This document shows, in pieces, positions 9,299 through 41,947 of a stretch of DNA of 64,000 bases. The position numbers were made by a program, and so were the translations under genes. Each line of letters begins with the position of its first letter. Positions within the stretch are counted from its first letter, which is position 1. A model generated the notes under the pieces. That model was not told the DNA's origin, made no database searches, and saw nothing but the letters and a program-made list of their open reading frames with translations. The DNA is from Phage NC-B: sequence record MK310183. The stretch is one strand, 5' to 3'.

Positions 9299-10096
9299 AT
9301 GACAAAAATAATGGGAGTGTCAGAGCTTGACCCTTTGGTCCAACAAGCTTCTAAGAAATATGGCATTCCTGCTGCTCTTATACATGCAGTGATTCAGAGA
9401 GAGTCTAATGGAAGACCTTCTGTTGAATCTGGTACAGGACCAGTAGGTTTAATGCAAATCAGTAAGGGGTTGGCTAAAGATTATGGATATAAACTTGAAG
9501 ATAGGTTAGACCCTGCAAAGAATATTGACATGGGTGCTAGATATTTAAGAGATAACCTGAAAGCTTTTGATGGTGATGTGAGGAAGGCTTTGGTGGGGTA
9601 TTCAGAAGGAACTGGTGGTGCTAAGCAAATGTTTGCTGGTAAGAGAGGGTTTACACCTCAAGCTTTAGATTCAATGAATAATAAGCTGTTCCTACCATTC
9701 TTTGATAAGAATACAGCAGCGGCACAAGTGGCTAATCCTGTAGGTGCTTTGAAAGCAGTTCAGCCTGTGGACCAGTTTGATTCTAATACACTGACTAGAG
9801 AAGGTGCTGCAAACGCTCCTACTCAAGCAGAGATAGCTGCAAGCAAGGCTGGAGCTTTAGGTGGTCGTCCTGTAGAGTTTTACTCTGATGAACAATCTAC
9901 TGGGGAAAATCAAAAACCTCAACAGAACTTTGGAAATGCTGTATTGGCAGCTGCTTCTATGCTTGCAGGAAAACAGCCTAACTCTCAAACCGTACAGAGA
10001 GCACATGCCCCTACTCAAGCAGGTTCTCGATACAGTCCACAAACACAAGCCGTGCTGAGACGTTTGTCTAGCATAGGTACTGATATTTACAGATAA
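9299..10096 (+). CDS. Lytic transglycosylase (SLT domain), probable virion-associated peptidoglycan hydrolase
   Basis: AAGGAG RBS; motif IQRESNGRPSVESGTGPVGLMQIS matches SLT catalytic ES...G..GLMQ signature. Confidence 0.65.
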   Translation: MTKIMGVSELDPLVQQASKKYGIPAALIHAVIQRESNGRPSVESGTGPVGLMQISKGLAKDYGYKLEDRLDPAKNIDMGARYLRDNLKAFDGDVRKALVGYSEGTGGAKQMFAGKRGFTPQALDSMNNKLFLPFFDKNTAAAQVANPVGALKAVQPVDQFDSNTLTREGAANAPTQAEIAASKAGALGGRPVEFYSDEQSTGENQKPQQNFGNAVLAAASMLAGKQPNSQTVQRAHAPTQAGSRYSPQTQAVLRRLSSIGTDIYR

Positions 10097-10105
10097 GGAG
10101 GACGT

Positions 10106-11158
10106 ATGTCTCTTTTCGGTTCTGCTCCTAAATCTAAGACTACGGTAGCTCCGTCTTCTCAGGTTGATGCTCTTCTGAAACAGATTGTAGCAAATGCTCA
10201 GGCTATGAATCAAAACGATCAAGGTTTTATTGGTCGTAACGTAGCGGGTTTTAATGAAAACCAAACAGCAGCTCTTTCTAATTTAGCAAATTCTAACACA
10301 CTCAACCAACTCAGTCAGATGTACACCCCTAGAACTCAACAAGGGTTGGACCAGATGAATGAGTTGGCTCAGAAATATCAAAACCTAGTTAATAAAGGTG
10401 GTATCACTGCTCAGGATGTTAATAATTTTAGCTCTGGATTGAATAGCTCTGCTTTAGCTAAGTCTACAGGTAAAGCTGCTGCTAATGTATCTCTTGGTAA
10501 TGGTTCTGATTCAGGTTCTCTTAGACGTGCTGCTGCTCAAGGTGCTGCTCTCTCTTCAGCGAATACAAACCTTTCTCGTTCTATTCAAGGTAAAAACATG
10601 GGTGTTAGCAATCTTATGAATAACAACTCCTATCAGCAAGGTTTGCTCAATGCTCAATCGGGTCTAGCAAATCAGAATCTGAATCTAGGAGCTGCTGGGG
10701 TACAAGCTGGTCAACAGGCAATACAGAATCAGCTCACTGCTGGGAATCTTCAACAACAGCAAGATCAACTCCAAGCTAACAACAATTGGGAGAATGCTAT
10801 TGGCAATCAGCAGTATGGTTGGAATCGGCTTAACAACCAGCTTAATGTATTAAACTCAGTAAGCCCAATGGCTGGGTACACCATTACTAACAAAGGTGCT
10901 GCCCCTAATGTTTCACAACAAATCCTTGGTGCTGGGGTTACTGGTCTTGGTATTGCTGGACGTCTAGGTGCTTTTACCCCTAATCAGCAAACTACTAATG
11001 CTTGGAACTCATACAATGCTTCTGGAGGTCAAGCTGGGATGGCTGGTCCTATGATTGGTGGCTCAAACCTGTCTCAACAGAATGGTCAGAGCAACTGGTT
11101 ATCTACCGCAGGAAGTAATATCTTAGGTGGTGTTCTAGGAGCCTTTGGAGCAAATTAA
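10106..11158 (+). CDS. Q/N/G-rich internal virion protein (paralog 1)
   Basis: AAGGAGG RBS; N-terminus MSLFGS..SKTT parallels the next gene. Confidence 0.45.
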   Translation: MSLFGSAPKSKTTVAPSSQVDALLKQIVANAQAMNQNDQGFIGRNVAGFNENQTAALSNLANSNTLNQLSQMYTPRTQQGLDQMNELAQKYQNLVNKGGITAQDVNNFSSGLNSSALAKSTGKAAANVSLGNGSDSGSLRRAAAQGAALSSANTNLSRSIQGKNMGVSNLMNNNSYQQGLLNAQSGLANQNLNLGAAGVQAGQQAIQNQLTAGNLQQQQDQLQANNNWENAIGNQQYGWNRLNNQLNVLNSVSPMAGYTITNKGAAPNVSQQILGAGVTGLGIAGRLGAFTPNQQTTNAWNSYNASGGQAGMAGPMIGGSNLSQQNGQSNWLSTAGSNILGGVLGAFGAN

Positions 11159-11167
11159 GGAGGAGCT

Positions 11168-12136
11168 ATGGCTTTATTTGGTGGTGGGAGTAGCAAGACT
11201 ACTTCTAAAATGACAAGACCTGACTACATTCAATCCTATATTGACCAGTTGGTCAATCAGGTTAATAACACTAGTTCAGGTGATTATGTGTATCGAGAAA
11301 ATGTTGGACTTAATCAAAACCAACAAGAAGCTCTGAACAATCTATCACAATCTGGTGCATTAGGTGCACTTTCTTCTCAATACATGGATGCTGCTCAATC
11401 TGGCTTAGGTTATCTAGATAACGCATACTCTGGATATAACAACCTATCTAACTCTGGTCAAATCACTGGGGAACAGATTGGTGCTCTTGCAGGCCAGCTC
11501 TATGACGATGAGGCTGTGCAAGCAGCTATTGCAGCGAATAATGAACAAACCCAACAGAGTTTGGCTAGGAATGCACTTCCTCAAATCTCTCAGCAGTTTG
11601 CTGGTCAGCAAGGTTCTGGTGCACGTATGGCTAAATCTTTTGCTCAAGGTGATGCTCTGAACCAGATGCAGAACACAGCAACCAATATTACTAATAGTGC
11701 TTATGACTCCGCTCTAACTCAAGCACAGAACATTCTTTCTGGTAATAGACAAACACAAGCATCTGCTTTGGGTGGTTTATCTAACATTGGCTCCAATCTT
11801 GCTAATCTAGGAAACCAAGCTGGTCAGTTATCACAACAGCAAATGATGAATCAGTGGAATGCAGGACTGCAACAGCAGCAACAACAGCAGTCTGATTTGA
11901 ACAATGCTTATGAGAATGCTCAGAATGCCGCTAATTGGGGTTGGCAGGATATTAACAATCAACTAGGTGCTGCCGGGGTTCTTAATGGAGCTTTAGGGAC
12001 AACCACAACTACTAAAACATCTGGTGGTAGTGGAGGCTTCCTAGGTGGTGCTGCTAGCGGTGCTGCTGCTGGCTCAGCTTTTGGCCCTTGGGGTGCTTTA
12101 GCTGGCGGTGTTATCGGTGGCTTAGCTAGCTCTTAA
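11168..12136 (+). CDS. Q/N/G-rich internal virion protein (paralog 2)
   Basis: AGGAG RBS; N-terminus MALFGGGSSKTT and Q/N-rich body paralogous to 10106-11158. Confidence 0.45.
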   Translation: MALFGGGSSKTTSKMTRPDYIQSYIDQLVNQVNNTSSGDYVYRENVGLNQNQQEALNNLSQSGALGALSSQYMDAAQSGLGYLDNAYSGYNNLSNSGQITGEQIGALAGQLYDDEAVQAAIAANNEQTQQSLARNALPQISQQFAGQQGSGARMAKSFAQGDALNQMQNTATNITNSAYDSALTQAQNILSGNRQTQASALGGLSNIGSNLANLGNQAGQLSQQQMMNQWNAGLQQQQQQQSDLNNAYENAQNAANWGWQDINNQLGAAGVLNGALGTTTTTKTSGGSGGFLGGAASGAAAGSAFGPWGALAGGVIGGLASS

Positions 12137-12150
12137 TTAGGAGAATAATT

Positions 12151-13818
12151 ATGCAACAAACTTCTTATGCGTATCTTCGCAGTCAAGACCCAAGAAATCA
12201 GATTTATGGTGTTAAACAAGGGGCCGCTTCGGCCTCTCCATACATGGCAAGACCTGCTTACCCAGCTGCTGATGTTTCAATGTATAGTCAGAGACCTCCT
12301 GCCTCTCCTGTAGGTTTATCCTCTCTTGTTGCTACTGCTCAAGAAGACCAAGAAGCTATGTTAAATCCGGGATTTAGGCAGCGCCTTATGGAAGCAGAGA
12401 ATCAAGGGACTCCTACAAGCCTTCAGGGTATTGATATTGGCGAACCAGCTCCTGCTATGAATAACCCAGATCTATCCTCTGATGAGGGTCTACAAGCTGC
12501 TGGGTTGATGCCTAGTGACCCACTTCCTGTTACTCCTCCTCGTAAACCTCTGGAAGAAACAGATAAAGAGTTCTCTCCAGTTCAGGTGGAACAGGCTCAG
12601 AATGTTATTAACACTTTAGCTAATAGTAATCCAGCTCCTGAAGGTATGGCTGGTGCAACTCGTGCTAAAGACCAAGAACGTATTAATAATGATATTATGG
12701 AAGTAGCTAAAGCTAAAGATCCAGCGCAAGCTTGGAATGAGCTTCAGAAGCAACCGTTCTACCAGAAGTCTAGTTTCTATACTGGCTTAATGGGTGTTGG
12801 TCTTTCTATCATGTCAGGTAAATCTCCTATTGAAGCTTTCCAGATTGGTTCTGGCTTAGCTGCTCAGGATGAAACTAAACAACAACTAGAAGCCAATCGC
12901 GATGCTCTGTTAGAACAAGGCTACTCTCAAGATTCAGTTGCTGCTGCAATTGCTTCGGGAGATCCTTCTCTTCTCAAGATGCGTCAGATGAGTCCTCAGG
13001 AGAAAATGGCTCTTGCTGCTCAGGATGAAGAACGTGCTAATCGTGAGTGGGATAGACGTCAACAGATTCAGGATCAATCAGTTCGTGAACGTGCTGCTGA
13101 GACTCGTCGTGCTGCTGAAGAACGTGCTGATGCACAATTTGCTAAACAGAAAGAGCTTATTGAATATCGTGATAAGGTTAAAGCAGACCGCGCTGAACAA
13201 GCTGCTCAGAGCTTCAACTTCAGTACGAAAGAGCTTCGTAACGTTCAGAATACTGCTGAAGGTTCTGTTGCTAAGCAGTGGGCAGAAAAAGCTGCTCTGT
13301 TTAAACAGTCTCATAAGGACTTGGATTTGGCAGATCAGGCTATTAAAGATAAAGACTACCAATCCGCTCGTACCGCTTACATGCAGGCTATTATGAACTC
13401 CGCAAGGGCAGAAATTGGTGCTAACCGTTCTCTCCAAGCTGATGACTTGGCCCACTTTGCAGAAGACCCATCAATCTTTGTTAAGGTTGGTAACACTTGG
13501 TCCCTTAAAGCAGGCTATCGTCCTTCTGATGCTGCTCTGTCATACGCTCGTAAGCAGGCAACTGTTGGTGCTTCTTCGGCTGACAAAGGTGTTCTGGAGT
13601 CTAAGAAATCAACTATTGATGCTTATGTGGGTTCTGGCATGAATAAGAAACGTGCAACAGCTTTGGTTAACCGTGGTATACCTTCTGGCGGTTTCTATGA
13701 CCCATACAAGACTTTTGATGCAGAAGCTGAAGAATCTGTTGGTGGAGATGCAACCAATCCTCGCTTAACAGGTGCTCTTTCTTCTTCAGCGGCAGATACG
13801 AGTTGGATGTTCCAGTAA
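12151..13818 (+). CDS. Internal virion protein (Pro/Ala-rich N-terminus, charged coiled-coil centre)
   Basis: AGGAGA RBS; 555 aa. Confidence 0.4.
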   Translation: MQQTSYAYLRSQDPRNQIYGVKQGAASASPYMARPAYPAADVSMYSQRPPASPVGLSSLVATAQEDQEAMLNPGFRQRLMEAENQGTPTSLQGIDIGEPAPAMNNPDLSSDEGLQAAGLMPSDPLPVTPPRKPLEETDKEFSPVQVEQAQNVINTLANSNPAPEGMAGATRAKDQERINNDIMEVAKAKDPAQAWNELQKQPFYQKSSFYTGLMGVGLSIMSGKSPIEAFQIGSGLAAQDETKQQLEANRDALLEQGYSQDSVAAAIASGDPSLLKMRQMSPQEKMALAAQDEERANREWDRRQQIQDQSVRERAAETRRAAEERADAQFAKQKELIEYRDKVKADRAEQAAQSFNFSTKELRNVQNTAEGSVAKQWAEKAALFKQSHKDLDLADQAIKDKDYQSARTAYMQAIMNSARAEIGANRSLQADDLAHFAEDPSIFVKVGNTWSLKAGYRPSDAALSYARKQATVGASSADKGVLESKKSTIDAYVGSGMNKKRATALVNRGIPSGGFYDPYKTFDAEAEESVGGDATNPRLTGALSSSAADTSWMFQ

Positions 13819-13843
13819 TCTAAGACCTAAGTCCTATCTCTTA

Positions 13844-13852
13844 TAATGTATA
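13844..13852 (+). promoter_or_regulatory. Candidate phage-sigma promoter element TAATGTATA
   Basis: Motif 36 nt upstream of ATG 13889; same motif recurs upstream of several minus-strand genes. Confidence 0.4.
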
Positions 13853-13888
13853 TAGGAGGTAGGACATTTTTATTTATAAGGAGACGTT

Positions 13889-16800
13889 ATGGCTAATTTA
13901 AAATCGTGGGAAGAAGCTTCCAAAGCTCCTGCGTATCTGAACGCCTCTCCAGAGCAACAGGCTCAAATGAGAGAACAATACAAGGCAGCAGGGGGCACTA
14001 TTCCTGAGACTCAACCACAAGAGCAACCACAACAAGAAGAACGAGGTGCTATTGGGGAGTTTGCTCAAGGTGTGTCTAACGCTCTTCAATCAGGTGGTGC
14101 TAACATTGCAGCTAGTGCTGCTAAAGGTTTAGGTGGGCTGGTAGAGATTGGTGAAAACTTAACTGGTTCAGAAACAAGCTATGGTAAGCGCATTCAAGAG
14201 AACTCTAAGCAATTGCTGGAAGAACGCTTATCCAAGATAGAAGACGGTTTTGGTAAAACAGCTGGTCAGTATGCTGGTGTTGCTGCTGATATTGGTTTGA
14301 CAGTTGCAAACCCTGCTGTTGCTGCTGCTGTTATCGCAGCTCGTGAAACAGGTCGTGCTTATGCTGATCAAACTCCTAAAGAAGATGAAGATAAGTCAGT
14401 CTTAGATGCTGCTCTTGTTGGTGGTGCTAACTACGCTGCTCAGAAGATACTTCCGGGCATGACTGGTACAGCTTCTACTACTCTTGGTCGTGTAGGACAA
14501 AGCGTAGCCTCTAACGCAGTTGCTGGTGCTAAGGGTGGTGCTATTGTTGGTGCTGCTGAAGCTCAGAACAAATATGGGGATGACACTACTCTAGCTAACG
14601 TATTAGAAGGGGCTATTGAAGAGGGTGCACTCGGTGCTGCTTATGGTGGGGCGATTGGTGGGGTTCATGGGTTAATAAGCCGTCCTAGCCCTCAAGTGTT
14701 TGATCGTACTCCTGAGCATGTTAAGACTGACATTGCTGCTGAAGATGAGGCTATTCGTAAAGCTGCTAACGCTGATGAACTTCGTGAAGCCTATGCTAAA
14801 GCTGAGAACGCTAATGCTGCCTCTGCTTTAAACCTTCTGGATGAAAATGGTTTCCGAATCACAGATGCAGTTGCTATGGACTCTCCTGCTGTTCAGCGTA
14901 TTTTAAATACAGACCAAAGCCGCGCTGAGAAGGCTGCTACGGTTCAGAAAGATAGCTCTAATGTTCCCGGTCTTAATCCTCTCGCTTCTCCTAAGAAGAC
15001 TCAAGGTAAAGCTTTTGCTGACAATGAGTACAACCAGAAACAAGCTGTGGCAATGAAAGATGCAATGGCTGACTACACTAAAGATAACACCAAAGCCCTT
15101 ACTGATGTTCTAGACAATCTAGACCGAGAGTTAGTAGCTCTGAGAGCAAGTGGTGATTTTACTGGTAGTACTATTGACATTAAAAACCGTACTCAAGCTG
15201 ATCGTGATTTTATTGATGCTTATAAAACTTTCTACAGCGAAGCTAATCGTTTCAAAGCTCGTGATGGTGAAGATCTAAACAACTTCATTGATAAAGCTAC
15301 TCAGTTGCAGAAGCTATCTGAGAATGTTTCTCCAGAGATGAAGAAGGCCATTGGTGGATTAAAGAAACTGAAAGGTATGCCTGAAGGTTTTAACCCTATT
15401 CAAGATGCTTTCACTCTGAATAATACAGCTAAGTTCATGAGTAACCAAGACCGTGGTTGGACCTCTCTGACTGATGATGGTTTTCGTGAAGCTCCGGCTC
15501 CTGTGCTAGTTAAGAACCCTCTCGGTGCAGCCAAGTATGTGCTTAATCGCTTTACTTCTGACCGTGCTCGTGCTCAACGTGAGAAGCAACAGTCAGCTAA
15601 TAGTGAAGCTATCCGCTCTTTGGCTAGGGCTGATTTAGAAGTACAACGAGCTAGGACTCAGGCTGAAGAAGCAAGAGCAAAAATGGAAGAAGAACCAACC
15701 ACAGAAGACATCAAATTCCGTACTCAAAATGATGCACCTTCCGAACCGGTTCGTGAGGAGCCTTCTGCTACTACTGTGACGGAAGAAATTCCTTCCTCTC
15801 CAGCTCCAACTGAAACACCTCTTACTGCGAGGGATTTAGTTGCTCAAAGACGTGCTATCCAACAAGCAGAGCTTAGACGTCAAGAAGCTGAAGCTGCTCA
15901 GGCTCAAGAAAGTGCTACACCAGAACCTGAACCACAGCAAGAAGCTCTTACAGCTAGAGAATTAGTAGCTCAGCGTAGGGCTGTAGCAGAGGCTAAGAAA
16001 CGTCAAGAGGCAGAGGAAGCAGAACGTGCTAAAGAAGCTCCTGAGGAAGCCGTAGAAGAGCCTAAAGAGAAACCTGAGCCATTACCTGCTCGTGCTCCTA
16101 AAGCTCCTGAGAAGGCTCCTGAGCCTGTTAAACCGTCCCTTGGTGTAGAACGTCTAGCTTCTATGTCAACTGCTGCTCGTCAAGCAACAAAAGACCGTGC
16201 TGATCGATTTGCTCGTTCTTTGTATTCGGCTGCTGCTAAAGCTAAAGCCACTGCGGAAAACTTCCTTTCTTACAAGGGAGATCCTAAAGAGCTTATGCGT
16301 CGTATCCGTCAGGAAGACCAAGCAAACAACACACAGCGTCATGAAGAGATGGCTAGAAACCAACTAGCTTCCCAGCAAGGCATTGCTTCTGCTAAATCTC
16401 AACATGTTCGTGCTTCTTTTGCTGATTGGGTGAAAGAACGTGGGTTGCCTTCTGATATTGCTACTAAGGCTTTACGGGCTGAAGAGAAAGGTTTAGGTGG
16501 GAACGTCACAAGTCTAGATTCACTGAAGCGAAGAGCTGAGCGTTTATATCAGAAACAAAGAGATGATGAGTTTGACCGTCTCTATCGAGAGGCTCTGGAA
16601 GAGAATAAAGCTTTTGATAAGAGAGATGCTCCTAAACTGGTAGACCAGAAGAAAGAGCTTCAGGATGAAATTGGTGCGTTGCTTGATGCTGAACCGTTAC
16701 GTCCTGCTCAGAAAGATGCTATGCGTAGGATTATGGAAGACTTCGTGGAGAGTAAGTTTAAATCTTCAGAGAAAGCTGGAAGGGTTGAGGCTTTGGAAGT

Positions 16801-18334
16801 TGGTCAGATGAAGGATGTGTGGGATGGGTTTATTAATACCTATAACCGAGAAGTTAACATGTTCAACAAGGCTAACAAGAATTCTCAATACGAAGCAGCA
16901 GCTAAACACTTGCAAGCACGTCAAGAACGTCTTGAGACGCTCCGTAACAGAGCTAAGGCTCGCAGTGATGCTAAGGCAGCCATGGAGGCTGAGAAGCAGT
17001 CCTTGGAGGCTATAGCGGCTCAGAAATCAGAGATAGAGAAGATGTTCAAAGAATTGCCTGAAAGTGTCAGAGAGGCTCAGGAAGGGCGTACTTTGAAACA
17101 GCTTGCTGCTCACCATGATAAGAACTCTCCAGTACCACCAGAGCGTTTCCGTAGTATCATTGAACGTATTCACAACGCTGAGAGTGATTACCTCGATCGA
17201 AAACGCCGTTTGACCGAAGCAGAGGAAGATGCTCGTGAAGCTAAGTGGAATAGGATGTATGAACAGGCTGAGGAAATGAACCGTAAGTTTGATATCGATG
17301 CTAGAGTGAAGAGAGATAAAGCTCTAAAGGAAGCTCAAGAACGAGAGAATGACTTAATGGCAGTTCAACGTCAGCGTGATGACATTCATAAGCGTTTAGT
17401 CAATACTCTGGAAGAGAAGGGAGTTTCTAGGGAAGATGCTGAAGCGTATGCTGGGTCTTACATGGATAATCGGTATGCTTTGTTAGAGAAACCAATGACT
17501 CCAGTGGAACATCAGAATGCTCGTGCTCGTATCGAATCTGACGTAGAGAAGTTTGTTAAGAAATACGAAACAGCTACTCCAATCGAAAGAGAGATTGCTA
17601 AGGCAACTGGTGATGCAGATGGGAAGGCTTCTGATCTGGATGCAGAAACAGCAAAAGCTATTGAAGATGCTCGTAAAGTGGATTCTGACTTTAAGAAACT
17701 TTTAGATGAAGAGAAGGAAATGGAGAAGATTCGTTCGGCTCTACCTGAAGATGAAAGATCTCAGGCGAACTCTGATATTCTGGAAAGTATCAAGAAACAG
17801 GAAGATGATTTTGCTAGCAAAGCAGAGAAAGCTTTTATTGAAGGGAAGGACTTGCAGGAGTTAGCGAGTGTTGCAGAAGTTCTAGATAGGGTTCATGGTG
17901 CAGACAAGGCTGGTAACAACCGTCGATTTGTACGTGCTCTACAGACTGCTGCCGAGAACAAGAAACGTTATGGGGATAATCCAGTGGCTTGGTTTAGTGC
18001 TGATGATTATTCTGCTATTGCGAAACTTGGTGCTGCTTCGGCAGGTGGTAACAAATCTCGAGCACTTGAGAAGATCTTTGGTTCTACAGCAGAACAAGCT
18101 AAAGGGAAACTTTTAGGGCGGGATGATGTAGCTAAGATTAGGCGTGTGATTGAAGCGAATCCTAATGTTAAGATTCCTTCTTACAAGACAACTACTAGAC
18201 AAGAGTACATGCAGTTCTTGGAGAAGTATAATGACGAGGGAGAGTTGAAAGTCAAACGTGGTTCTCTGTCTGACAAGTTGGAGAGAGGTAAGCGTCAAGC
18301 CAAACTCCGTGTTAGAGTTCGAGCTAAGGAGTAA
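13889..18334 (+). CDS. Large Ala/Glu/Lys-rich virion protein (internal core/ejection or tape-measure-like)
   Basis: AAGGAG RBS; 1481 aa, helical/charged with internal tandem repeat; last gene of the + strand block. Confidence 0.45.
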   Translation: MANLKSWEEASKAPAYLNASPEQQAQMREQYKAAGGTIPETQPQEQPQQEERGAIGEFAQGVSNALQSGGANIAASAAKGLGGLVEIGENLTGSETSYGKRIQENSKQLLEERLSKIEDGFGKTAGQYAGVAADIGLTVANPAVAAAVIAARETGRAYADQTPKEDEDKSVLDAALVGGANYAAQKILPGMTGTASTTLGRVGQSVASNAVAGAKGGAIVGAAEAQNKYGDDTTLANVLEGAIEEGALGAAYGGAIGGVHGLISRPSPQVFDRTPEHVKTDIAAEDEAIRKAANADELREAYAKAENANAASALNLLDENGFRITDAVAMDSPAVQRILNTDQSRAEKAATVQKDSSNVPGLNPLASPKKTQGKAFADNEYNQKQAVAMKDAMADYTKDNTKALTDVLDNLDRELVALRASGDFTGSTIDIKNRTQADRDFIDAYKTFYSEANRFKARDGEDLNNFIDKATQLQKLSENVSPEMKKAIGGLKKLKGMPEGFNPIQDAFTLNNTAKFMSNQDRGWTSLTDDGFREAPAPVLVKNPLGAAKYVLNRFTSDRARAQREKQQSANSEAIRSLARADLEVQRARTQAEEARAKMEEEPTTEDIKFRTQNDAPSEPVREEPSATTVTEEIPSSPAPTETPLTARDLVAQRRAIQQAELRRQEAEAAQAQESATPEPEPQQEALTARELVAQRRAVAEAKKRQEAEEAERAKEAPEEAVEEPKEKPEPLPARAPKAPEKAPEPVKPSLGVERLASMSTAARQATKDRADRFARSLYSAAAKAKATAENFLSYKGDPKELMRRIRQEDQANNTQRHEEMARNQLASQQGIASAKSQHVRASFADWVKERGLPSDIATKALRAEEKGLGGNVTSLDSLKRRAERLYQKQRDDEFDRLYREALEENKAFDKRDAPKLVDQKKELQDEIGALLDAEPLRPAQKDAMRRIMEDFVESKFKSSEKAGRVEALEVGQMKDVWDGFINTYNREVNMFNKANKNSQYEAAAKHLQARQERLETLRNRAKARSDAKAAMEAEKQSLEAIAAQKSEIEKMFKELPESVREAQEGRTLKQLAAHHDKNSPVPPERFRSIIERIHNAESDYLDRKRRLTEAEEDAREAKWNRMYEQAEEMNRKFDIDARVKRDKALKEAQERENDLMAVQRQRDDIHKRLVNTLEEKGVSREDAEAYAGSYMDNRYALLEKPMTPVEHQNARARIESDVEKFVKKYETATPIEREIAKATGDADGKASDLDAETAKAIEDARKVDSDFKKLLDEEKEMEKIRSALPEDERSQANSDILESIKKQEDDFASKAEKAFIEGKDLQELASVAEVLDRVHGADKAGNNRRFVRALQTAAENKKRYGDNPVAWFSADDYSAIAKLGAASAGGNKSRALEKIFGSTAEQAKGKLLGRDDVAKIRRVIEANPNVKIPSYKTTTRQEYMQFLEKYNDEGELKVKRGSLSDKLERGKRQAKLRVRVRAKE

Positions 18335-26441: not shown

Positions 26442-28286
26442 TTAGTGAGTGTGATTCCAGTTTAACCCAATCTTACAGTCAGATGCCAGAGGGCATTCCA
26501 TTTTGAGATACTCACCTGCTTTACGAACACACTCTTCAGTGAGGGTACGAAGTTTGTTAACATCGTCACGATGTACAGTGAACTGGCCTTCATCATGCAT
26601 GTCAATAACCTTCGCACAACGAACACCATCACGCTCAATCCATTTATTAAGGAATAGCATTGCATACTTCATAACAATCGCCCCAGCGCTCTGTAAGAGA
26701 GTATTTAAGGCTTTATGAACCATAACCTTTCCAGTTGCATCTCTTCTCATTGTAATACGACGTCCATCCACACCGTAGATGTATCCACTTTGTGCTTTCT
26801 CTGTCATACGTTCAATAAGAATTGCAATACAAGGATTCTCTGCTAAGAATCTTGCCCTCATGACAGCTCCTTCATCAGAGCCACCGCCTACGATGCTTCC
26901 TAACTTAGCGTCACCAGCTCCGTAGTTGAATGCGTAGATAAATGTTTTAGCATTATCACGAGTAGGAAGGCCAGCAAGTTTTTGGTTATGTGAGTGAATA
27001 TCTCCTTCTAAAAGAATATCTCTGTACATAACAGCAGAAGCTAGACCGCGTTCAGCTTCTCGTTTCTTAGCCGGGTTGTTTTCTCGCTCTGCTTCAGCGA
27101 GCATCTCACGACATTCTTTAATAAGGTAGTGAGCTAGCATCCTCAGCTCAAGACCAGAGCCATCGTAACCTAAGAAGATTTCACGACCAGCAGGAACATA
27201 GAACTTATAGGCACCTACAGGTTTGTCTTTCTTGCCCGGTTTTCCCACTTCGTAGATAATGTTAGTACCCTTTCGTACGTAACACCCATCAGGGATATGG
27301 TTGGTAATGATGAAAGGATGGTTATGACTATCGTCTGAGGAATAGTCAGATTGAAAAAGACTGCGGCACTCGTGACCAAACAAACCGCGAGAAGGAATAT
27401 TAACAACAATGCGATGTTTAAAACGAAATGTCGGAGTAGCGCAGCTATTAGCTTCGGCGGACAACTTACCATCTTTACGTTCCTTGTCGATAAGCCCGCT
27501 AATCAAACCTAGCCTGTGAGCCGCTACAACGCGTCTCTTAAGCAAACTTCCTACACCCCCTAGCTCACCCCCAAGCCCTTCTTCAAGAGTCTCCTCAAGG
27601 TTTGTAGGGGCTGTAGGCCACTTGTTTGATGTAGCCAAAGCTTTTTTGATTTCATCAAAGGTTACAGGCTTCTTCCTATTAGGGTTAAGACCTAAACCGC
27701 TGACATAAGCTTTCATATAATTGACAGTGTGATAACGGAAGTGCTTATCCAAAAACCTTCGGATATCAGCATCTATCATCTCTGCTGTCTGTTTCTCTTT
27801 AGCGTTACCTCGAATCCAAGCAGAATACCATGCAGAGTATGTACCATACTTCTTCATAGCTTTACGAATTTCAAAAGTATTCCAAGGTTTCTTAGAATAA
27901 TTCCACTCTGGAGGTATAAAACCTTCATCCATCAAGGCTTCTTTAATACGTGCATCTTTTGATGGGTCAAAATCTACATACTCAACGCAAGTAAACGCCC
28001 CACCGATATCTTCTCTTTTAAGACCAACCCTATCGCAATAGAGCTGAGGCCACTTCTGTAAAGCACCTGACTTCTTAAAAGGCTTAGCATAAGTTGAACC
28101 ATCCACCCGCATTTTAGGGAGGAGAGGAATCAGTTCTTTATCAATATTGACAATAATCTCTTTGAGAAGGTGAACAAACCACCGAGCGTTTCTTCTGTTG
28201 AAGTTGACTCCATGCTTCGCTTGTTTTGAGATTATATCAGCGACTGTCATCTCCGTTATGAAAGGTAACTTATCAGGGTTATCCAT
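26442..28286 (-). CDS. DNA polymerase, family A (T7 gp5-like polymerase domain, no exonuclease domain)
   Basis: ATG at 28286 with AAGGAG RBS; motif A GYDGSGLELRMLAHY, motif B PTRDNAKTFIYAFNYGAG, motif C VIDMHDE. Confidence 0.8.
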   Translation of the reverse strand: MDNPDKLPFITEMTVADIISKQAKHGVNFNRRNARWFVHLLKEIIVNIDKELIPLLPKMRVDGSTYAKPFKKSGALQKWPQLYCDRVGLKREDIGGAFTCVEYVDFDPSKDARIKEALMDEGFIPPEWNYSKKPWNTFEIRKAMKKYGTYSAWYSAWIRGNAKEKQTAEMIDADIRRFLDKHFRYHTVNYMKAYVSGLGLNPNRKKPVTFDEIKKALATSNKWPTAPTNLEETLEEGLGGELGGVGSLLKRRVVAAHRLGLISGLIDKERKDGKLSAEANSCATPTFRFKHRIVVNIPSRGLFGHECRSLFQSDYSSDDSHNHPFIITNHIPDGCYVRKGTNIIYEVGKPGKKDKPVGAYKFYVPAGREIFLGYDGSGLELRMLAHYLIKECREMLAEAERENNPAKKREAERGLASAVMYRDILLEGDIHSHNQKLAGLPTRDNAKTFIYAFNYGAGDAKLGSIVGGGSDEGAVMRARFLAENPCIAILIERMTEKAQSGYIYGVDGRRITMRRDATGKVMVHKALNTLLQSAGAIVMKYAMLFLNKWIERDGVRCAKVIDMHDEGQFTVHRDDVNKLRTLTEECVRKAGEYLKMECPLASDCKIGLNWNHTH

Positions 28287-28302
28287 CACCCACTCCTTAT
28301 AG

Positions 28303-38954: not shown

Positions 38955-39161
38955 TTAGTAAAACGATCGTATTTCTTCCCACACATCATCTTGCAAGTTT
39001 CTAAAACCCTGCAAGGTTTGCTTTGTTCTGTGAATAAATTCTTCAGAGTGCTTATCAGGTGTGAGCATACTGACAAACTTTTCATAGCGATTAATCTTCC
39101 ACCGCATCTTCAAGTAGTCAGATTCCAGCTTTCTTAACTTCTGCCTGTCAGTTACTGTCAT
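38955..39161 (-). CDS. Hypothetical basic protein
   Basis: Internal ATG at 39161 chosen to limit overlap with upstream gene; start uncertain (track 39257). Confidence 0.3.
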   Translation of the reverse strand: MTVTDRQKLRKLESDYLKMRWKINRYEKFVSMLTPDKHSEEFIHRTKQTLQGFRNLQDDVWEEIRSFY

Positions 39162-39579
39162 CCTTCTCACCTGCCAGATATGCTGTCCAGTCACCAGATT
39201 CAACCAGAACATCTTGTTCTTCGTCGATGTGATAAATCCACGCTTCCACAGTTTCACCGCTGTCCAATAATACTGGAATCAGCGTACGCTTGTAAAAGGT
39301 GTATGGGTTATCATTACCACGATGACCTTCCAGACCGTCATACGGACCTTCCAGACCAGCTTGGGTTGTTTCAAAGACCTCTACACGAACAGGCTTACCG
39401 TTGCTGTCATGCTCCAGAGATACACTTGGGAAGTATGCTGTGCAATACTGATACAGGTTACAGTTGTTTACTGTCCACCCTTCACCAATAGACACACCAC
39501 CTGCGCGAGCATTGATAGCGTGGTTGTGTTGACCTTTACGAAGAGAACCATACGTTGCAACTAATACTTTATCAGACAT
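39148..39579 (-). CDS. Gamma-glutamyl cyclotransferase-like (AIG2/GGCT family) protein
   Basis: AAAGGT RBS; N-terminal VATYGSLRKG (YGSL motif); 143 aa. Confidence 0.55.
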   Translation of the reverse strand: MSDKVLVATYGSLRKGQHNHAINARAGGVSIGEGWTVNNCNLYQYCTAYFPSVSLEHDSNGKPVRVEVFETTQAGLEGPYDGLEGHRGNDNPYTFYKRTLIPVLLDSGETVEAWIYHIDEEQDVLVESGDWTAYLAGEKDDSN

Positions 39580-39583
39580 TACA

Positions 39584-39781
39584 TTACCTTTTGTTTAAAA
39601 TTTCTTTTGTACAAGAAGTCCCGTTACACACGAGAACTGTTTGAGTTATAGAATCGACAACTGTTACATGGCTGCCGCATTGAGTTATGATTTGACCTCT
39701 CCCTGAATCTTTAGAGATGCATTCATCAGCGGCGATTGCTGACACACTGAATAAGGAGAGGAAAAATAGAATCTTTTTCAT
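39584..39781 (-). CDS. Small secreted Cys-rich protein
   Basis: Signal peptide MKKILFFLSLFSVSAIA then 6 Cys in 45 residues. Confidence 0.4.
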   Translation of the reverse strand: MKKILFFLSLFSVSAIAADECISKDSGRGQIITQCGSHVTVVDSITQTVLVCNGTSCTKEILNKR

Positions 39782-39787
39782 TGCTGC

Positions 39788-40204
39788 TTACCAATCATGT
39801 TGGAAACCAGAATATCCAGAGAAGATGATTGATCGGATTGGCTTTTCAGGGAATTCTTCAAAACATCCCTTAATGGCTTTCTTGGTTTCATCAGACATTG
39901 ACTCTTTTTCGCCAAACCAGTATTCTTCAAAAATATCAGAGAAGATATAAGTTCGGTATCTTTCCAAGTCATAAAAACCTTCCACTGCACCTGTAACAGC
40001 TCGACTGATCGTACTAGAAGCTACAGGAAATAAATCACTGTGCTCCATAAATAAACACCAACGATCAAAGAGTGGAATCTCTTCATCTTTCAGAAGACTC
40101 TCTAATTCTTCCTTTGCCTCTTTCTTATTCTTCTCAAAGAGGTTTTTGGAATATTCTACATCTAAGATACGACTCTTAAACATATCCAGTTTATTGTCAA
40201 CCAT
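39788..40204 (-). CDS. Hypothetical protein
   Basis: GGAGG RBS, ATG; 138 aa. Confidence 0.5.
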   Translation of the reverse strand: MVDNKLDMFKSRILDVEYSKNLFEKNKKEAKEELESLLKDEEIPLFDRWCLFMEHSDLFPVASSTISRAVTGAVEGFYDLERYRTYIFSDIFEEYWFGEKESMSDETKKAIKGCFEEFPEKPIRSIIFSGYSGFQHDW

Positions 40205-40260
40205 TTACAACCTCCAGTTAAATTCGAACTAGCCTCCTCTTTCGAAGAGGCTAAAGCAAA

Positions 40261-40446
40261 TTATTCTACTTCGAAGTGTTTGATCACACCAGTTAGTACA
40301 TCAGATTGGAATGTACCCACTAGCTCTGCGCCTCGGAAGAAATTGACATTTGTTCCTAGTGTTTCAAAGCGCTCTGCTTGAATGTCCAGAGATTGAATAT
40401 TCCCTTCTGATGTTACTGTACGAAACATGATTGTATATTTATTCAT
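40261..40446 (-). CDS. Hypothetical protein
   Basis: ATGA overlap with upstream stop; 61 aa. Confidence 0.35.
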   Translation of the reverse strand: MNKYTIMFRTVTSEGNIQSLDIQAERFETLGTNVNFFRGAELVGTFQSDVLTGVIKHFEVE

Positions 40447-40685
40447 AGACTTGTTACTCCCTTATCTGCTTGTGCAATAGCAAAAATTCGCTCTACACAT
40501 TCCATTGAGTCTTTATCACCACGCTTTAAGAAGGTGACGATAGCAGAGAATTGATTACCAATCATTCTCTTATTGGTGATACCAAACTCTTCACAGAGTT
40601 GGTTAATCATTTTACGAGAGCCTACAATCAGAGGCTCTTTTTCTTCAGTCATTCCACGGCTGATCAAATCTTCGATAGACAACAT
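40443..40685 (-). CDS. Hypothetical protein
   Basis: AAGGA RBS, ATG; 80 aa. Confidence 0.4.
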   Translation of the reverse strand: MLSIEDLISRGMTEEKEPLIVGSRKMINQLCEEFGITNKRMIGNQFSAIVTFLKRGDKDSMECVERIFAIAQADKGVTSL

Positions 40686-40711
40686 TACAAATTCCTTTTT
40701 GTTTAATTTAA

Positions 40712-41947
40712 TTATAGAGTTACTGCTACTTCGCTACCTTCAACATTGACAGACTCTAACTTGCGAGGGTTATGAATCTGGACTGGATTGACCGGAACGT
40801 TCCAACCACTGCGGTAGAAGTTACGACCATCACAGAACAGGATGACATTGGCAGACATTGCATTCGGTTGCAGGTTGTTGTGGACATGACGGATATTTGC
40901 AATCCAGTAGCCACGAGACAAAGTGTAGCCAGTAGGTGCATTACGAATAGTTTGAGTATTCATCTGACCTTCCAGTTGCATTTCTTCAGGAACCATATCA
41001 ACTGAATCAATCGGCTGTGCTACTTGTCCTTCCAGTGCAAAGTTTTCATCATCAGCACTTTCACTGTCATCAACCAACTCACCATCTCCGTCTTCAATCG
41101 GAGTCTGGTAAACCACTTTATACTGAGGAGTATAGAGAGGGTTCTGAGCTTTAACAAACTCAAGAATGTTATGACGGTAGGTATCCAGAGTTGTACCAGT
41201 CAGGCCCGGTGCTGTATTAACTTCCAGTACCCACGCTTCTTGACCTTTGGTGATAATATCAACTGCACCGAAATCCAGACCCATTGATTCAACAGCTTTC
41301 ACTGCATTGATCAGAGAGGCGTCATTCGGAGCATCTGTGAAGGAGCTTGAGTAAACCCAGCCAGTGTGGTGATTACGAATATCTTCACGATAGTTAGGGT
41401 CTTCGCGATAACCATTGCGACGAATCTTCTTCTGAACATAGGTGATTACACCTTTGAACACATGGACACGCCACTCACGACGTGGGCCTTGAATGCCTTT
41501 AGTGTACAGTTCAGCTCGACCAAGACCATCACCCGGTTCTACAACAACAATGCCCGAACCAGAGTGACCAGTCAGCTCATGGCGCTCATACACAATATTA
41601 CCAGTGTTTGACCACTCTTGAGCAGTCTCTTGAGCATCTGTGTATTCCACAGTTTTAACACCTGCTTGGTCCATCACGCTGAAAGCACGACGTTTGTTCG
41701 CTGCCATATGTAAGGCTGCGGTACGGTTAAGGACGGTTGAAGAACCAAAGAATGATTCAGGATAGCGACGGTTCCCGTAGTTAACAACCACATCACCTTC
41801 ACGAGAACGCCAGCGGCTATTCTCTGAAAGAAGACCCATCACGTTAGCATTGATGCGTTCATCACGGATAGTATCACTGATAGCAGATACTAGAGCGTTA
41901 ACAGAATCAGACGGGCCATACGGAAGAACACGGATACGAGTAGTCAT
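40712..41947 (-). CDS. ATP-grasp fold ligase
   Basis: Motifs EWRVHVFKGVITYV and AWVLEVNTAPGL match ATP-grasp (RimK/glutathione-synthetase-like) signatures; 411 aa. Confidence 0.5.
   Translation of the reverse strand: MTTRIRVLPYGPSDSVNALVSAISDTIRDERINANVMGLLSENSRWRSREGDVVVNYGNRRYPESFFGSSTVLNRTAALHMAANKRRAFSVMDQAGVKTVEYTDAQETAQEWSNTGNIVYERHELTGHSGSGIVVVEPGDGLGRAELYTKGIQGPRREWRVHVFKGVITYVQKKIRRNGYREDPNYREDIRNHHTGWVYSSSFTDAPNDASLINAVKAVESMGLDFGAVDIITKGQEAWVLEVNTAPGLTGTTLDTYRHNILEFVKAQNPLYTPQYKVVYQTPIEDGDGELVDDSESADDENFALEGQVAQPIDSVDMVPEEMQLEGQMNTQTIRNAPTGYTLSRGYWIANIRHVHNNLQPNAMSANVILFCDGRNFYRSGWNVPVNPVQIHNPRKLESVNVEGSEVAVTL

What the first reader, a model, noticed from the sequence alone, without database searches (positions are those of the whole stretch)
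15821..16040. Internal tandem repeat and PEK-rich linker in the 1481-aa virion protein
Two consecutive ~30-aa segments (LTARDLVAQRRAIQQAELRRQEAEAAQ and LTARELVAQRRAVAEAKKRQEAEEAER) are followed by a Pro/Glu/Lys/Ala-rich stretch. Repeat number could tune protein length, as in tape-measure proteins.
Basis: seen in the sequence. Interest (0 to 1): 0.2.

Follow-up and report, generated by a model that had tools for sequence, protein, structure and literature searches.

The report
Variable-copy repeat linker in phage ejection protein
The repeat is a real, ancient 42-residue duplication inside the flexible middle section of the largest protein that this E. coli phage shoots into the cell with its DNA; related phages carry between zero and about seven such units, so this middle section is a length-adjustable spacer. 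It is a tidy case, not a surprising one.

Summary
The 1481-aa ORF (13889-18334, +) has two 42-aa units (aa 645-686 and 687-728; nt 15821-16072). Each is a ~27-aa helix starting LTAR[DE]LVAQRRA, followed by a ~15-aa Pro/Glu-rich spacer. A Pro/Glu/Lys stretch follows, holding a third, truncated unit start (PLPARAPKAP). The self-match scores 119; 0 of 600 shuffles reached it.

The window is a Suseptimavirus (SU7-like) podophage. The ORF is the ortholog (81% identity, syntenic) of SU10 gp24, one of five ejection proteins found in virions by mass spectrometry. It is not a tape measure.

The duplication is old: 11 of 13 core residues are identical, yet 8 of the first 12 codons differ synonymously, and orthologous copies are closer than paralogous ones. 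Copy number does vary:
- 1 in the LAMP/Bas92-94 clade, through a clean 114-nt deletion between the two units
- 2 here
- 3-4 in an 87-kb metagenomic relative
- at least 5 in a 1754-aa relative
- 4-5 units of a different motif in a distant clade
- about 0 in the shortest relatives

Among 122 close homologs, essentially all length variation lies in this central region.

Most likely it is a modular, largely disordered tether with conserved motif islands. A ruler function is untested. Interest is low to moderate.

The parts
13889..18334 (+). Gene for the 1481-aa ejection (internal virion) protein, ortholog of SU10 gp24 / phiEco32 gp26
   Evidence: ORF list. 81% identity over full length to SU10_024 (P0075) and phi32_26 (P0086). 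phrog_14629 matched end to end. Same position in the module as SU10_024. SU10 gp20-24 are ejection proteins by mass spectrometry.
13889..15685 (+). N-terminal part (aa 1-599), including a Gly/Ala-rich, glycine-zipper-like region (aa ~50-270)
   Evidence: Length 598-614 aa in 122 close homologs. 15 of 33 family-invariant columns are Gly/Ala between aa 130 and 253. Hydrophobic windows and GxxxG runs.
15686..15820 (+). Acidic Pro/Thr/Ser-rich leader of the central region (aa 600-644)
   Evidence: Net charge -8, 8 Pro. AF2 pLDDT below 50 and no secondary structure. Small indels between lineages.
15821..15946 (+). Repeat unit 1 (aa 645-686): helix LTARDLVAQRRAIQQAELRRQEAEAAQ (nt 15821-15901) plus spacer AQESATPEPEPQQEA (nt 15902-15946)
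   Evidence: Self-alignment. AF2 helix at aa 647-674, pLDDT 80-89. Core is near-invariant across 9 lineage representatives (0.87).
15947..16072 (+). Repeat unit 2 (aa 687-728): helix LTARELVAQRRAVAEAKKRQEAEEAER (nt 15947-16027) plus spacer AKEAPEEAVEEPKEK (nt 16028-16072)
   Evidence: Self-alignment. AF2 helix at aa 689-715, pLDDT 83-84. Intact in Suseptimavirus, degenerate in Kuravirus (LPARNPLEERRAMEQQRAQEE), absent in Bas92/Bas93/Bas94/LAMP.
16073..16138 (+). Pro/Glu/Lys-rich tail of the central region (aa 729-750), holding a third, truncated unit start / type-B motif EPLPARAPKAP (aa 730-740, nt 16076-16108)
   Evidence: The motif is the most conserved island of the linker (0.95). It aligns with the last PEPDQALARTPKAPEKA unit of distant homolog P0126. 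AF2 pLDDT below 50.
16139..18334 (+). C-terminal all-alpha part (aa 751-1481)
   Evidence: Measured from the KAKAT anchor (aa 784), the rest of the protein is 697-698 aa in 122 close homologs. AF2 gives long helices of up to 84 and 93 residues, mean pLDDT 69.6, pTM 0.29. No fold match in the PDB.
9299..13818 (+). The other four genes of the ejection module: SLT transglycosylase 9299-10096, gp21-like 10106-11158, gp22-like 11168-12136, gp23-like 12151-13818
   Evidence: PHROG hits for transglycosylase and DNA ejection protein. Synteny with SU7, SU10 and metagenomic relatives.

Best explanation
The repeat is part of a modular, mostly disordered central linker (aa ~600-750) in the largest ejection protein of a Suseptimavirus podophage, the ortholog of SU10 gp24.

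Each module is a short conserved motif followed by an acidic Pro-rich spacer. In this phage the motif seeds a ~27-residue charged alpha-helix starting (P)LTAR[DE]LVAQRRA. The window has two full modules and a truncated third (PLPARAPKAP).

The linker joins an N-terminal Gly/Ala-rich part, probably membrane-active, to a C-terminal all-helical part.

Shown:
- The duplication is real and ancient, and its motif is held by purifying selection.
- The linker is the only part of the protein whose length varies.
- Modules are gained and lost by recombination between units.

Inferred:
- The linker acts as an extensible tether or spacer. It would let this 160-kDa protein be threaded through the tail and reach across the cell envelope when the ejection proteins extend the nozzle.
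- The conserved motif islands are contact sites (self, partner ejection protein, or envelope component) rather than pure filler.
For: Identity and role of the protein:
- The window is 98% identical at nucleotide level to Suseptimavirus phages.
- The protein is 81% identical over its full length to SU10_024.
- The five-gene module is identical to that of SU10.
- SU10 gp20-24 are present in virions and absent after genome release (PMC9509320).

Repeat is real:
- Self-alignment score 119, against shuffle maxima of 78-97.

Ancient and under selection:
- 11/13 core residues are identical, but 8 of the first 12 codons differ synonymously.
- Orthologous cores are closer than paralogous ones: window A1 vs SU10 A1 is 34/39 nt, window A1 vs window A2 is 27/39 nt.
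- Motif islands are as conserved as the folded parts (0.87 and 0.95, against 0.52-0.72 for spacers).

Structure:
- AF2 gives two isolated helices (aa 647-674 and 689-715, pLDDT 80-89) between segments with pLDDT below 50.

Variable length:
- In 122 close homologs the sequence from the KAKAT anchor (aa 784) to the C-terminus is 697-698 aa, the N-part is 598-614 aa, and the central region is 138-266 aa.
- Across the family the central region ranges from 92 to 462 aa.
- Unit counts: 1 (Bas92/93/94, LAMP, P0137), 2 (window, ECBP2, SU10), 3 plus 1 degenerate (P0121/P0135/P0136), at least 5 (P0122), 4-5 type-B units (P0125, P0126, L013-L015, L020), and about 0 (P0130, P0134).

Mechanism of change:
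- The 114-nt in-frame deletion in Bas92/93 has its junction inside a 26-nt tract shared by both units (GAACAGCGTCGCGCTGAAGAAGAGGC vs GAACAGCAACGTGCTCAAGAAGAGGC).
- Viable isolates with one unit exist (BASEL collection, PMC11990801).

Orthology of distant relatives:
- The ejection module is syntenic in them.
Against: - No experiment or structure places this linker anywhere during infection. SU10 cryo-EM did not resolve the ejection proteins.
- Membrane activity of the N-terminal part is inferred only from composition and invariant glycines.
- The high conservation of the motif cores is not needed for a passive spacer, so part of the function is still unexplained.
- 94 of 98 sequenced relatives keep exactly two units. 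This argues for constraint on the number rather than free tuning.
- The AF2 models rest on a shallow alignment (9 sequences, pTM 0.26-0.29).
Confidence: 0.55

Rival explanations
1. Multivalent docking motifs. The conserved islands (LTARDLVAQRRA, PLPARAPKAP, and PDQxLVRxPRRP in distant relatives) are short linear motifs. They would bind a symmetric or repeated partner, such as the portal or nozzle channel, another ejection protein, packaged DNA, or a host periplasmic or envelope component. The number of copies would set valency, and the Pro/Glu segments would only space them.
For: - The islands are as conserved as the folded parts, inside a variable, indel-rich linker.
- The core is kept at protein level despite synonymous saturation.
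- Within single distant proteins, 4-5 copies keep the same motif while the spacers differ.
- Arg-Arg is the invariant element even in the degenerate Kuravirus copy (A150, R151, R157, R158, A159).
Against: - No partner has been identified.
- The second copy is degenerate in Kuravirus and deleted in a viable clade.
- The two shortest homologs have no regex-detectable units.
- No family or structure match to any known binding motif. A tblastn search with the motif found nothing outside the family.
Confidence: 0.25
2. True molecular ruler. The number of units would fix the length of a structure, here the trans-periplasmic extension built by ejection proteins, as a tape measure fixes tail length.
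For: - Copy number and central-region length vary between lineages, while the flanking parts keep their length.
- SU10 ejection proteins are proposed to extend the nozzle across the periplasm.
- A 42-aa unit could add several nm (about 4 nm of helix plus up to about 4.5 nm of extended spacer; own arithmetic).
Against: - The region is predicted to be mostly disordered, not a rigid rod.
- The one-unit-deletion phages infect the same species (E. coli K-12 with O16 antigen).
- No tape-measure family signal and no tail-tube context.
- No measurement links copy number to any dimension.
Confidence: 0.1
3. Neutral low-complexity drift. The region would be a tolerated junk linker, and the similarity of the two segments would be a by-product of biased composition or of recent slippage.
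For: - The region is compositionally biased.
- Small indels such as AA or AERAKE occur in it.
- A foreign 68-aa segment is tolerated there in three phages.
Against: - Shuffles that keep local composition never reach the observed score.
- The core is conserved in orthologs down to 62-69% overall identity.
- The pattern of synonymous divergence with amino-acid identity excludes recent slippage and indicates selection.
Confidence: 0.05
4. Maturation cleavage sites. The repeated motif at each linker boundary would be recognised by a protease during head maturation or after ejection, cutting the protein into N- and C-terminal fragments.
For: Only circumstantial: repeated conserved short motifs in exposed disordered segments.
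Against: - SU10 gp24 is listed as a 1473-residue virion protein with no mention of fragments.
- No protease was examined or identified here.
- The motif forms a confident helix in the model.
Confidence: 0.05

Closest known systems
SU10 gp24 / phiEco32 gp26 (phrog_14629), the largest of the five Kuravirus ejection proteins
   Same: Full-length ortholog: 81% identity, the same place at the end of the SLT-gp21-gp22-gp23-gp24 module, and the same N- and C-part lengths. The virion location and release with the genome were shown for SU10.
   Different: In Kuravirus the second unit has degenerated (LPARNPLEERRAMEQQRAQEE) and the central region is 8 aa shorter. Here, as in other Suseptimavirus phages, both units are intact. 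No function or structure has been published for any member, and the repeat architecture was not described in the papers read.
TonB proline-rich domain II and TolA helical domain II (periplasm-spanning linkers of E. coli)
   Same: Similar composition and layout: Glu-Pro / Lys-Pro type segments mixed with Ala/Glu/Lys/Arg-rich helices between a hydrophobic N-terminal part and a C-terminal domain. Length is variable across taxa, and partial deletions are tolerated until reach is lost (PMC12204202). This composition explains the 'TolA protein' label given to the ES17 ortholog.
   Different: No sequence or family relationship (no TonB_C or TolA Pfam hits). There is no single N-terminal transmembrane helix with an SHLS motif. 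The protein is delivered from a virion, not anchored to a motor. The resemblance is functional analogy only.
Tail tape-measure proteins of sipho- and myoviruses
   Same: A large, mostly helical virion protein with internal repeats. In-frame gain or loss of units changes protein length.
   Different: The gene lies in a podovirus ejection module, not between tail chaperones and distal tail genes. There are no tape-measure family hits. The repeat region is a short, largely disordered linker (150 of 1481 aa), not the body of the protein. No measured structure is known.
T7 gp16-type large ejection proteins
   Same: The largest ejection protein of a podovirus. T7 gp16 spans the periplasm, inner membrane and cytoplasm after ejection (about 300 Å; PMC8954989). 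A comparable trans-envelope role is plausible here.
   Different: No detectable sequence or fold similarity. The transglycosylase is a separate protein here (9299-10096) rather than an N-terminal domain.

Membership tests
SU10 gp24 / phiEco32 gp26 ejection protein family (phrog_14629) | Full-length sequence homology | tested here: met
   phrog_14629 matched over 1-1481 against profile positions 1-1473, 2940 bits. 81% identity at 100% coverage to SU10_024 and phi32_26.
SU10 gp24 / phiEco32 gp26 ejection protein family (phrog_14629) | Last gene of the late module: transglycosylase, two DNA-ejection-protein paralogs, a ~555-aa protein, then this protein | tested here: met
   Window ORFs 9299-18334, compared with the SU7 and SU10 annotation and with four metagenomic contigs.
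SU10 gp24 / phiEco32 gp26 ejection protein family (phrog_14629) | Packaged in the virion and released with the genome | not testable with these tools
   Shown by mass spectrometry for SU10 only (PMC9509320 main text and Supplementary Table 1). Inferred here by orthology.
Tail tape-measure protein | Match to tape-measure families and location between tail assembly chaperone and distal tail genes of a long-tailed phage | tested here: not met
   No Pfam family above threshold. The only PHROG is phrog_14629, of unknown function. The genome is a C3-morphotype podovirus.
Tail tape-measure protein | Protein length proportional to the length of a virion structure | not testable with these tools
   No dimension is known to co-vary with copy number. 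Testing would need cryo-ET of copy-number variants.
TonB / TolA periplasmic force transducers | N-terminal transmembrane helix with motor-binding motif and C-terminal TonB_C / TolA domain III | tested here: not met
   No Pfam hits for the whole protein, the N-part, the centre or the C-part, even at E <= 5. No solved-structure relatives.
TonB / TolA periplasmic force transducers | Pro-rich and/or helical domain II of variable length | tested here: met
   aa 600-750 has 21 Pro and two isolated helices, and its length varies between homologs. This is analogy, not membership.
T7 gp16-like ejection protein | N-terminal lytic transglycosylase domain and sequence or fold similarity to gp16 | tested here: not met
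   The SLT domain is in a separate 265-aa protein. No PDB sequence hit (best E = 0.56). No Foldseek hit with E below 2.3 for the C-part. The N-part fold was not modelled.
Single alpha-helix (ER/K) spacer | Isolated, charge-rich helix without a hydrophobic core | tested here: inconclusive
   The helix tails (AELRRQEAEAAQ, AEAKKRQEAEEAER) are E/R/K/A-rich and are modelled as isolated helices with pLDDT 80-89. The conserved head, however, has a hydrophobic L..LV..I stripe.

The most novel reading that the evidence does not exclude
The conserved motif-plus-spacer modules would form a tunable, multivalent envelope-spanning tether. Their number would be adjusted by unequal recombination to the envelope geometry, or to a repeated partner, of each host lineage. 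That would make the central region of gp24-type ejection proteins a podovirus counterpart of a ruler or adaptor. Natural 1-, 2-, 3-4- and >=5-unit variants are available to test it.
Probability: 0.2. Interest if true: 0.55.

Novelty: new member of a known kind. Interest (0 to 1): 0.3.

Why it matters
The ejection proteins of Kuravirus-like phages have no assigned structure or mechanism. SU10 cryo-EM could not resolve them.

This analysis shows that the largest one has three parts: a Gly-rich N-part, a modular linker of variable length, and a helical C-part of fixed length. Nature has already made a copy-number series, including culturable one-unit phages (Bas92-94, LAMP) next to two-unit relatives. 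That gives a cheap handle for testing how such proteins bridge the envelope.

These phages are also used as therapeutic candidates (ES17, SU10 relatives). Knowing that the 'TolA', 'liver stage antigen' and 'erythrocyte binding protein' labels on this gene are most likely compositional artefacts is useful for annotation.

Tried and rejected
- Tandem Repeats Finder on the gene found only three trivial short arrays, because the units are 53% identical at DNA level.
- Pfam on the whole protein and on four sub-regions gave nothing above threshold. The best hits were IF3_N (E = 0.097), SesA (0.019) and ICAT (0.11), all far below their cut-offs.
- The PDB sequence search gave nothing (best E = 0.56).
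- Foldseek of the AF2 C-part against the PDB gave nothing (best E = 2.3), and the model itself has pTM 0.29.
- tblastn of the 31-aa motif segment against 50,697 phage records found no match at E <= 10, probably because of the low-complexity filter.
- A second large homology search with the family alignment returned mostly the same Kuravirus proteins. It added only P0135-P0139.
The scan with the distant-clade alignment gave one new contig.
- The region has no Rfam family, promoter-like site or terminator-like site. Its other-frame and antisense ORFs are 65 aa or shorter.
- Common origin of the helical (A) and Pro-rich (B) motifs was considered. They share a PL[TP]AR start in Gordonclarkvirinae, but do not align in register with the PDQxLVRxPRRP form. 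This was left as a possibility.
- Genome size: the one-unit clade has 67-70 kb genomes, but myPSH2311, EC.W2-6 and EC.W14-3 (67-69 kb records) have two units. No clean link was found.
Full report
**What the window is.** The 4446-nt ORF at 13889-18334 (+) is 96-98% identical in DNA to Suseptimavirus phages (vB_EcoP-101114UKE3, SU7, EK010) and about 80% identical to Kuravirus phages (SU10, phiEco32, ES17). All 98 matching phage records are Escherichia or Shigella Gordonclarkvirinae. The gene is the last of the rightward late module. Upstream lie a lytic transglycosylase (9299-10096), two paralogous 'DNA ejection protein' genes (10106-11158, 11168-12136) and a 555-aa ORF (12151-13818). The order is the same in SU10, where these genes are SU10_020 to SU10_024.

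The SU10 structural study reports that gp20-24 are present in virions and absent from genome-release intermediates, and calls them ejection proteins. gp24 is listed as a 1473-residue virion protein with no resolved density (PMC9509320). The window protein is 81% identical over its full length to SU10_024 (P0075) and phiEco32 gp26 (P0086), and matches phrog_14629 (unknown function) end to end. So 'virion protein' is right, and more precisely it is the largest ejection protein of a podovirus. Database labels on orthologs ('TolA protein', 'putative liver stage antigen', 'erythrocyte binding protein 1', 'type 3 domain protein precursor') most likely reflect only the Ala/Glu/Lys/Arg-rich composition.

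**Checking the observation.** The two quoted segments start at aa 645 and 687, so the period is 42 aa (126 nt). Each unit is a 27-aa segment followed by a ~15-aa Pro/Glu-rich spacer (AQESATPEPEPQQEA; AKEAPEEAVEEPKEK). The first 13 residues are 11/13 identical (LTARDLVAQRRAI / LTARELVAQRRAV), and the whole unit is 19/42 identical.

An exhaustive ungapped self-comparison puts this pair first, with score 119 at offset 42. The runner-up scores 61. Two hundred global shuffles gave 48.4 +/- 5.4 (max 78). Shuffles confined to 15- or 30-residue blocks, which keep the local bias, gave about 64 +/- 8-10 (max 89 and 97). The repeat is therefore not a composition artefact. At DNA level the units share only 67/126 positions. 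That is why Tandem Repeats Finder is silent and only a 28-nt core at spacing 126 is reported. The Pro/Glu/Lys/Ala-rich stretch follows as described and runs to aa 750 (10 Pro in aa 714-750). Nothing else is encoded there: no Rfam family, no promoter-like or terminator-like site, and only short other-frame ORFs.

**Age and selection.** Of the first 12 codons, 11 encode the same residue in both units, yet 8 of them differ synonymously. Comparing the 39-nt cores between genomes, orthologous copies are closer than paralogous ones:
- window A1 vs SU10 A1: 34/39
- window A2 vs ECBP2 A2: 30/39
- window A1 vs window A2: 27/39
- ECBP2 A1 vs ECBP2 A2: 25/39

The duplication thus predates the split of the genera and has not been homogenised. 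The peptide core has been kept by purifying selection. In an alignment of nine lineage representatives (<97% identical to each other), the first core scores 0.87 and a second island, EPLPARAPKAP (aa 730-740), scores 0.95. This is as high as the flanking N- and C-parts (0.85, 0.87), whereas spacers and helix tails score 0.52-0.72 and hold the gaps.

**Structure prediction.** AlphaFold2 on aa 501-884, with a shallow nine-sequence alignment, gives two isolated helices at aa 647-674 and 689-715 (block pLDDT 80-89). They are separated and flanked by segments with pLDDT below 50 and no secondary structure (aa 601-646, 675-688, 716-749). The C-part (aa 751-1481) is predicted all-alpha, with helices of up to 84 and 93 residues, but the global confidence is poor (pTM 0.29). 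It has no Foldseek match in the PDB. Sequence searches against Pfam and the PDB are empty.

*Within sequenced phages:* Suseptimavirus (window, SU7, ECBP2) has two intact units. Kuravirus (SU10, phiEco32 and about 110 further proteins) keeps unit 1 unchanged, but unit 2 has decayed to LPARNPLEERRAMEQQRAQEE, retaining only L.AR.....RRA.

Four Kuravirus records (Bas92, Bas93, Bas94, LAMP), plus one metagenomic protein (P0137), have a 1435-aa protein that lacks exactly one unit. The 114-nt in-frame deletion has its junction inside a 26-nt tract that the two units share, with 22 of 26 positions matching. This is the signature of unequal recombination or slippage between units. These are plaque-forming isolates (PMC11990801), so the second unit is dispensable.

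Three other Kuravirus records (SDYTW1-F1-2-2_3, PE006, VTCCBPA_211) carry a 68-aa non-repeat segment in place of about 15 aa of the spacer after unit 2 (1526 aa).

*Beyond sequenced phages:* the family is small. Only 14 clusters at 50% identity were found among 1.84 billion proteins. It is nevertheless informative:
- **P0121 / P0135 / P0136 (1567-1577 aa, 62-69% identical).** They come from an 87-kb contig with the same five-gene module. They have three clear units (LTADELVGARR, MTARELVEQRR, VTARELLAQRR) plus a degenerate one upstream.
- **P0122 (1754 aa, 40%).** It has at least five PRG[IV]SAQELADIGRRVRES units, two of them nearly identical, which indicates recent expansion.
- **A distant clade (P0123, P0125, P0126, L013-L015, L020; 1318-1467 aa, about 27-31% identical).** The ejection module is syntenic. 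Most members have four or five units of a different, Pro-flanked motif ([PV]DQxLVRxPRRP) in Pro/Glu spacers. The last of these (PEPDQALARTPKAPEKA in P0126) aligns with the window's EPLPARAPKAPEKA.
- **P0130 and P0134 (1086 and 1108 aa).** They have almost no central region.

Between fixed anchors the central region measures 92, 140, 178-186, 227-238, 266, 319 and 462 aa. Among 122 close homologs the central region ranges from 138 to 266 aa. The N-part is 598-614 aa, and the two 614-aa values are probably start-codon calls. From the KAKAT anchor (aa 784) to the C-terminus the length is 697-698 aa. Essentially all length variation in this protein family is therefore variation in the number and kind of linker modules.

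**Interpretation.** Three things are shown:
- a real, ancient, selected duplication
- a three-part architecture whose middle part is modular and length-variable
- gain and loss of modules by recombination between units

What follows is inferred. The N-part has moderately hydrophobic Gly/Ala-rich segments with GxxxG runs (aa 128-153, 205-223, 246-264). It also holds 15 of the 33 residues invariant across the whole family, all Gly or Ala between aa 130 and 253. This suggests a membrane-active region.

SU10 ejection proteins are proposed to extend the nozzle across the periplasm. T7 gp16, the largest ejection protein of T7, spans the periplasm, the inner membrane and the cytoplasm (PMC8954989). 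On that basis the most economical reading is an extensible tether or spacer between two working parts. It would be easy to thread through the tail channel and long enough to bridge the envelope. By my own arithmetic, 150 residues with two helices of about 4 nm and about 95 extended residues could reach 25-35 nm.

This is analogous to the Pro-rich and helical domain II of TonB and TolA, which vary in length and tolerate partial deletion until reach is lost (PMC12204202). The conserved islands imply that the linker is not mere filler. They probably make contacts with itself, another ejection protein, the channel, or an envelope component. I could not identify the partner.

**On the tape-measure idea.** The part that can be tested by sequence comparison holds: copy number varies and sets protein length. 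The mechanistic part does not follow. The gene is not a tape measure by family or by context, and the repeat region is a tenth of the protein and mostly disordered. In addition, 94 of 98 sequenced relatives keep two units, and the one-unit phages infect the same host species. A ruler role for the trans-periplasmic conduit remains possible, and the natural variants would allow a test.

**Novelty and score.** The family and its virion role are known. In the papers I read, the repeat, the modular linker, its copy-number series and the recombinational deletion are not described. In kind it is another repeat-bearing, low-complexity spacer in a phage internal protein, so I rate it a new member of a known kind, of low to moderate interest (0.3).

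Noticed in passing
window 13831-13865 (+), T-run to 13875: A 15-bp-stem hairpin followed by ATTTTTATTT sits in the 70-nt gap between the gp23-like ORF (stop 13818) and the start of the 1481-aa ORF (13889). It looks like a terminator or attenuator and could lower expression of the last, largest ejection protein (0.1 expected by chance).
   Followed up: no
L002, L004, L006 (SDYTW1-F1-2-2_3, PE006, VTCCBPA_211), aa ~708-775 of their 1526-aa orthologs: A 68-aa non-repeat segment (GQKASSEDASSVTKESLSHYAEDGILSQDLNGNIALRLNQFTPAEQQFLRNHNLVDSNDMVKASSLRQ) replaces about 15 aa of the spacer after unit 2. It has no Pfam match. Its origin is unknown, and it shows that the linker tolerates foreign insertions.
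   Followed up: partly
window 14276-14680 (aa 130-264 of the ORF): Gly/Ala-rich, glycine-zipper-like segments (for example GALGAAYGGAIGGVHG, aa 246-261) hold 15 of the 33 residues invariant across the whole family. This is the most conserved feature of the protein and a candidate membrane-inserting region.
   Followed up: partly
P0122 aa ~860-905 and P0123 aa ~760-800 (central regions): Two distant homologs share an extra conserved element inside their linkers (TLSQRRELSDRNDPRAFDETLTRQEADAILSEP / VANLQQRQQLNAMGHPEAFNSDLTSRQADELIAAGP). It is absent from the window protein.
   Followed up: no
window 14000-14045 (aa 38-52): A second small low-complexity patch (PETQPQEQPQQEER) near the N-terminus has indels between lineages. 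It accounts for the 605-613-aa N-parts of P0121, P0135 and P0136.
   Followed up: no
phage records: The one-unit variant occurs only in the small-genome (67-70 kb) Kuravirus clade (Bas92, Bas93, Bas94, LAMP). Other 67-69 kb records (myPSH2311, EC.W2-6, EC.W14-3) have two units, so the link with genome size is not clean.
   Followed up: partly
L001 (SU7) features at record 39150-41601; window about 26442-28289 (-): In SU7 the DNA polymerase is annotated in two pieces around a homing endonuclease, whereas the window has a single 615-aa ORF at the corresponding place. This was seen only in the annotation table and ORF list.
   Followed up: no
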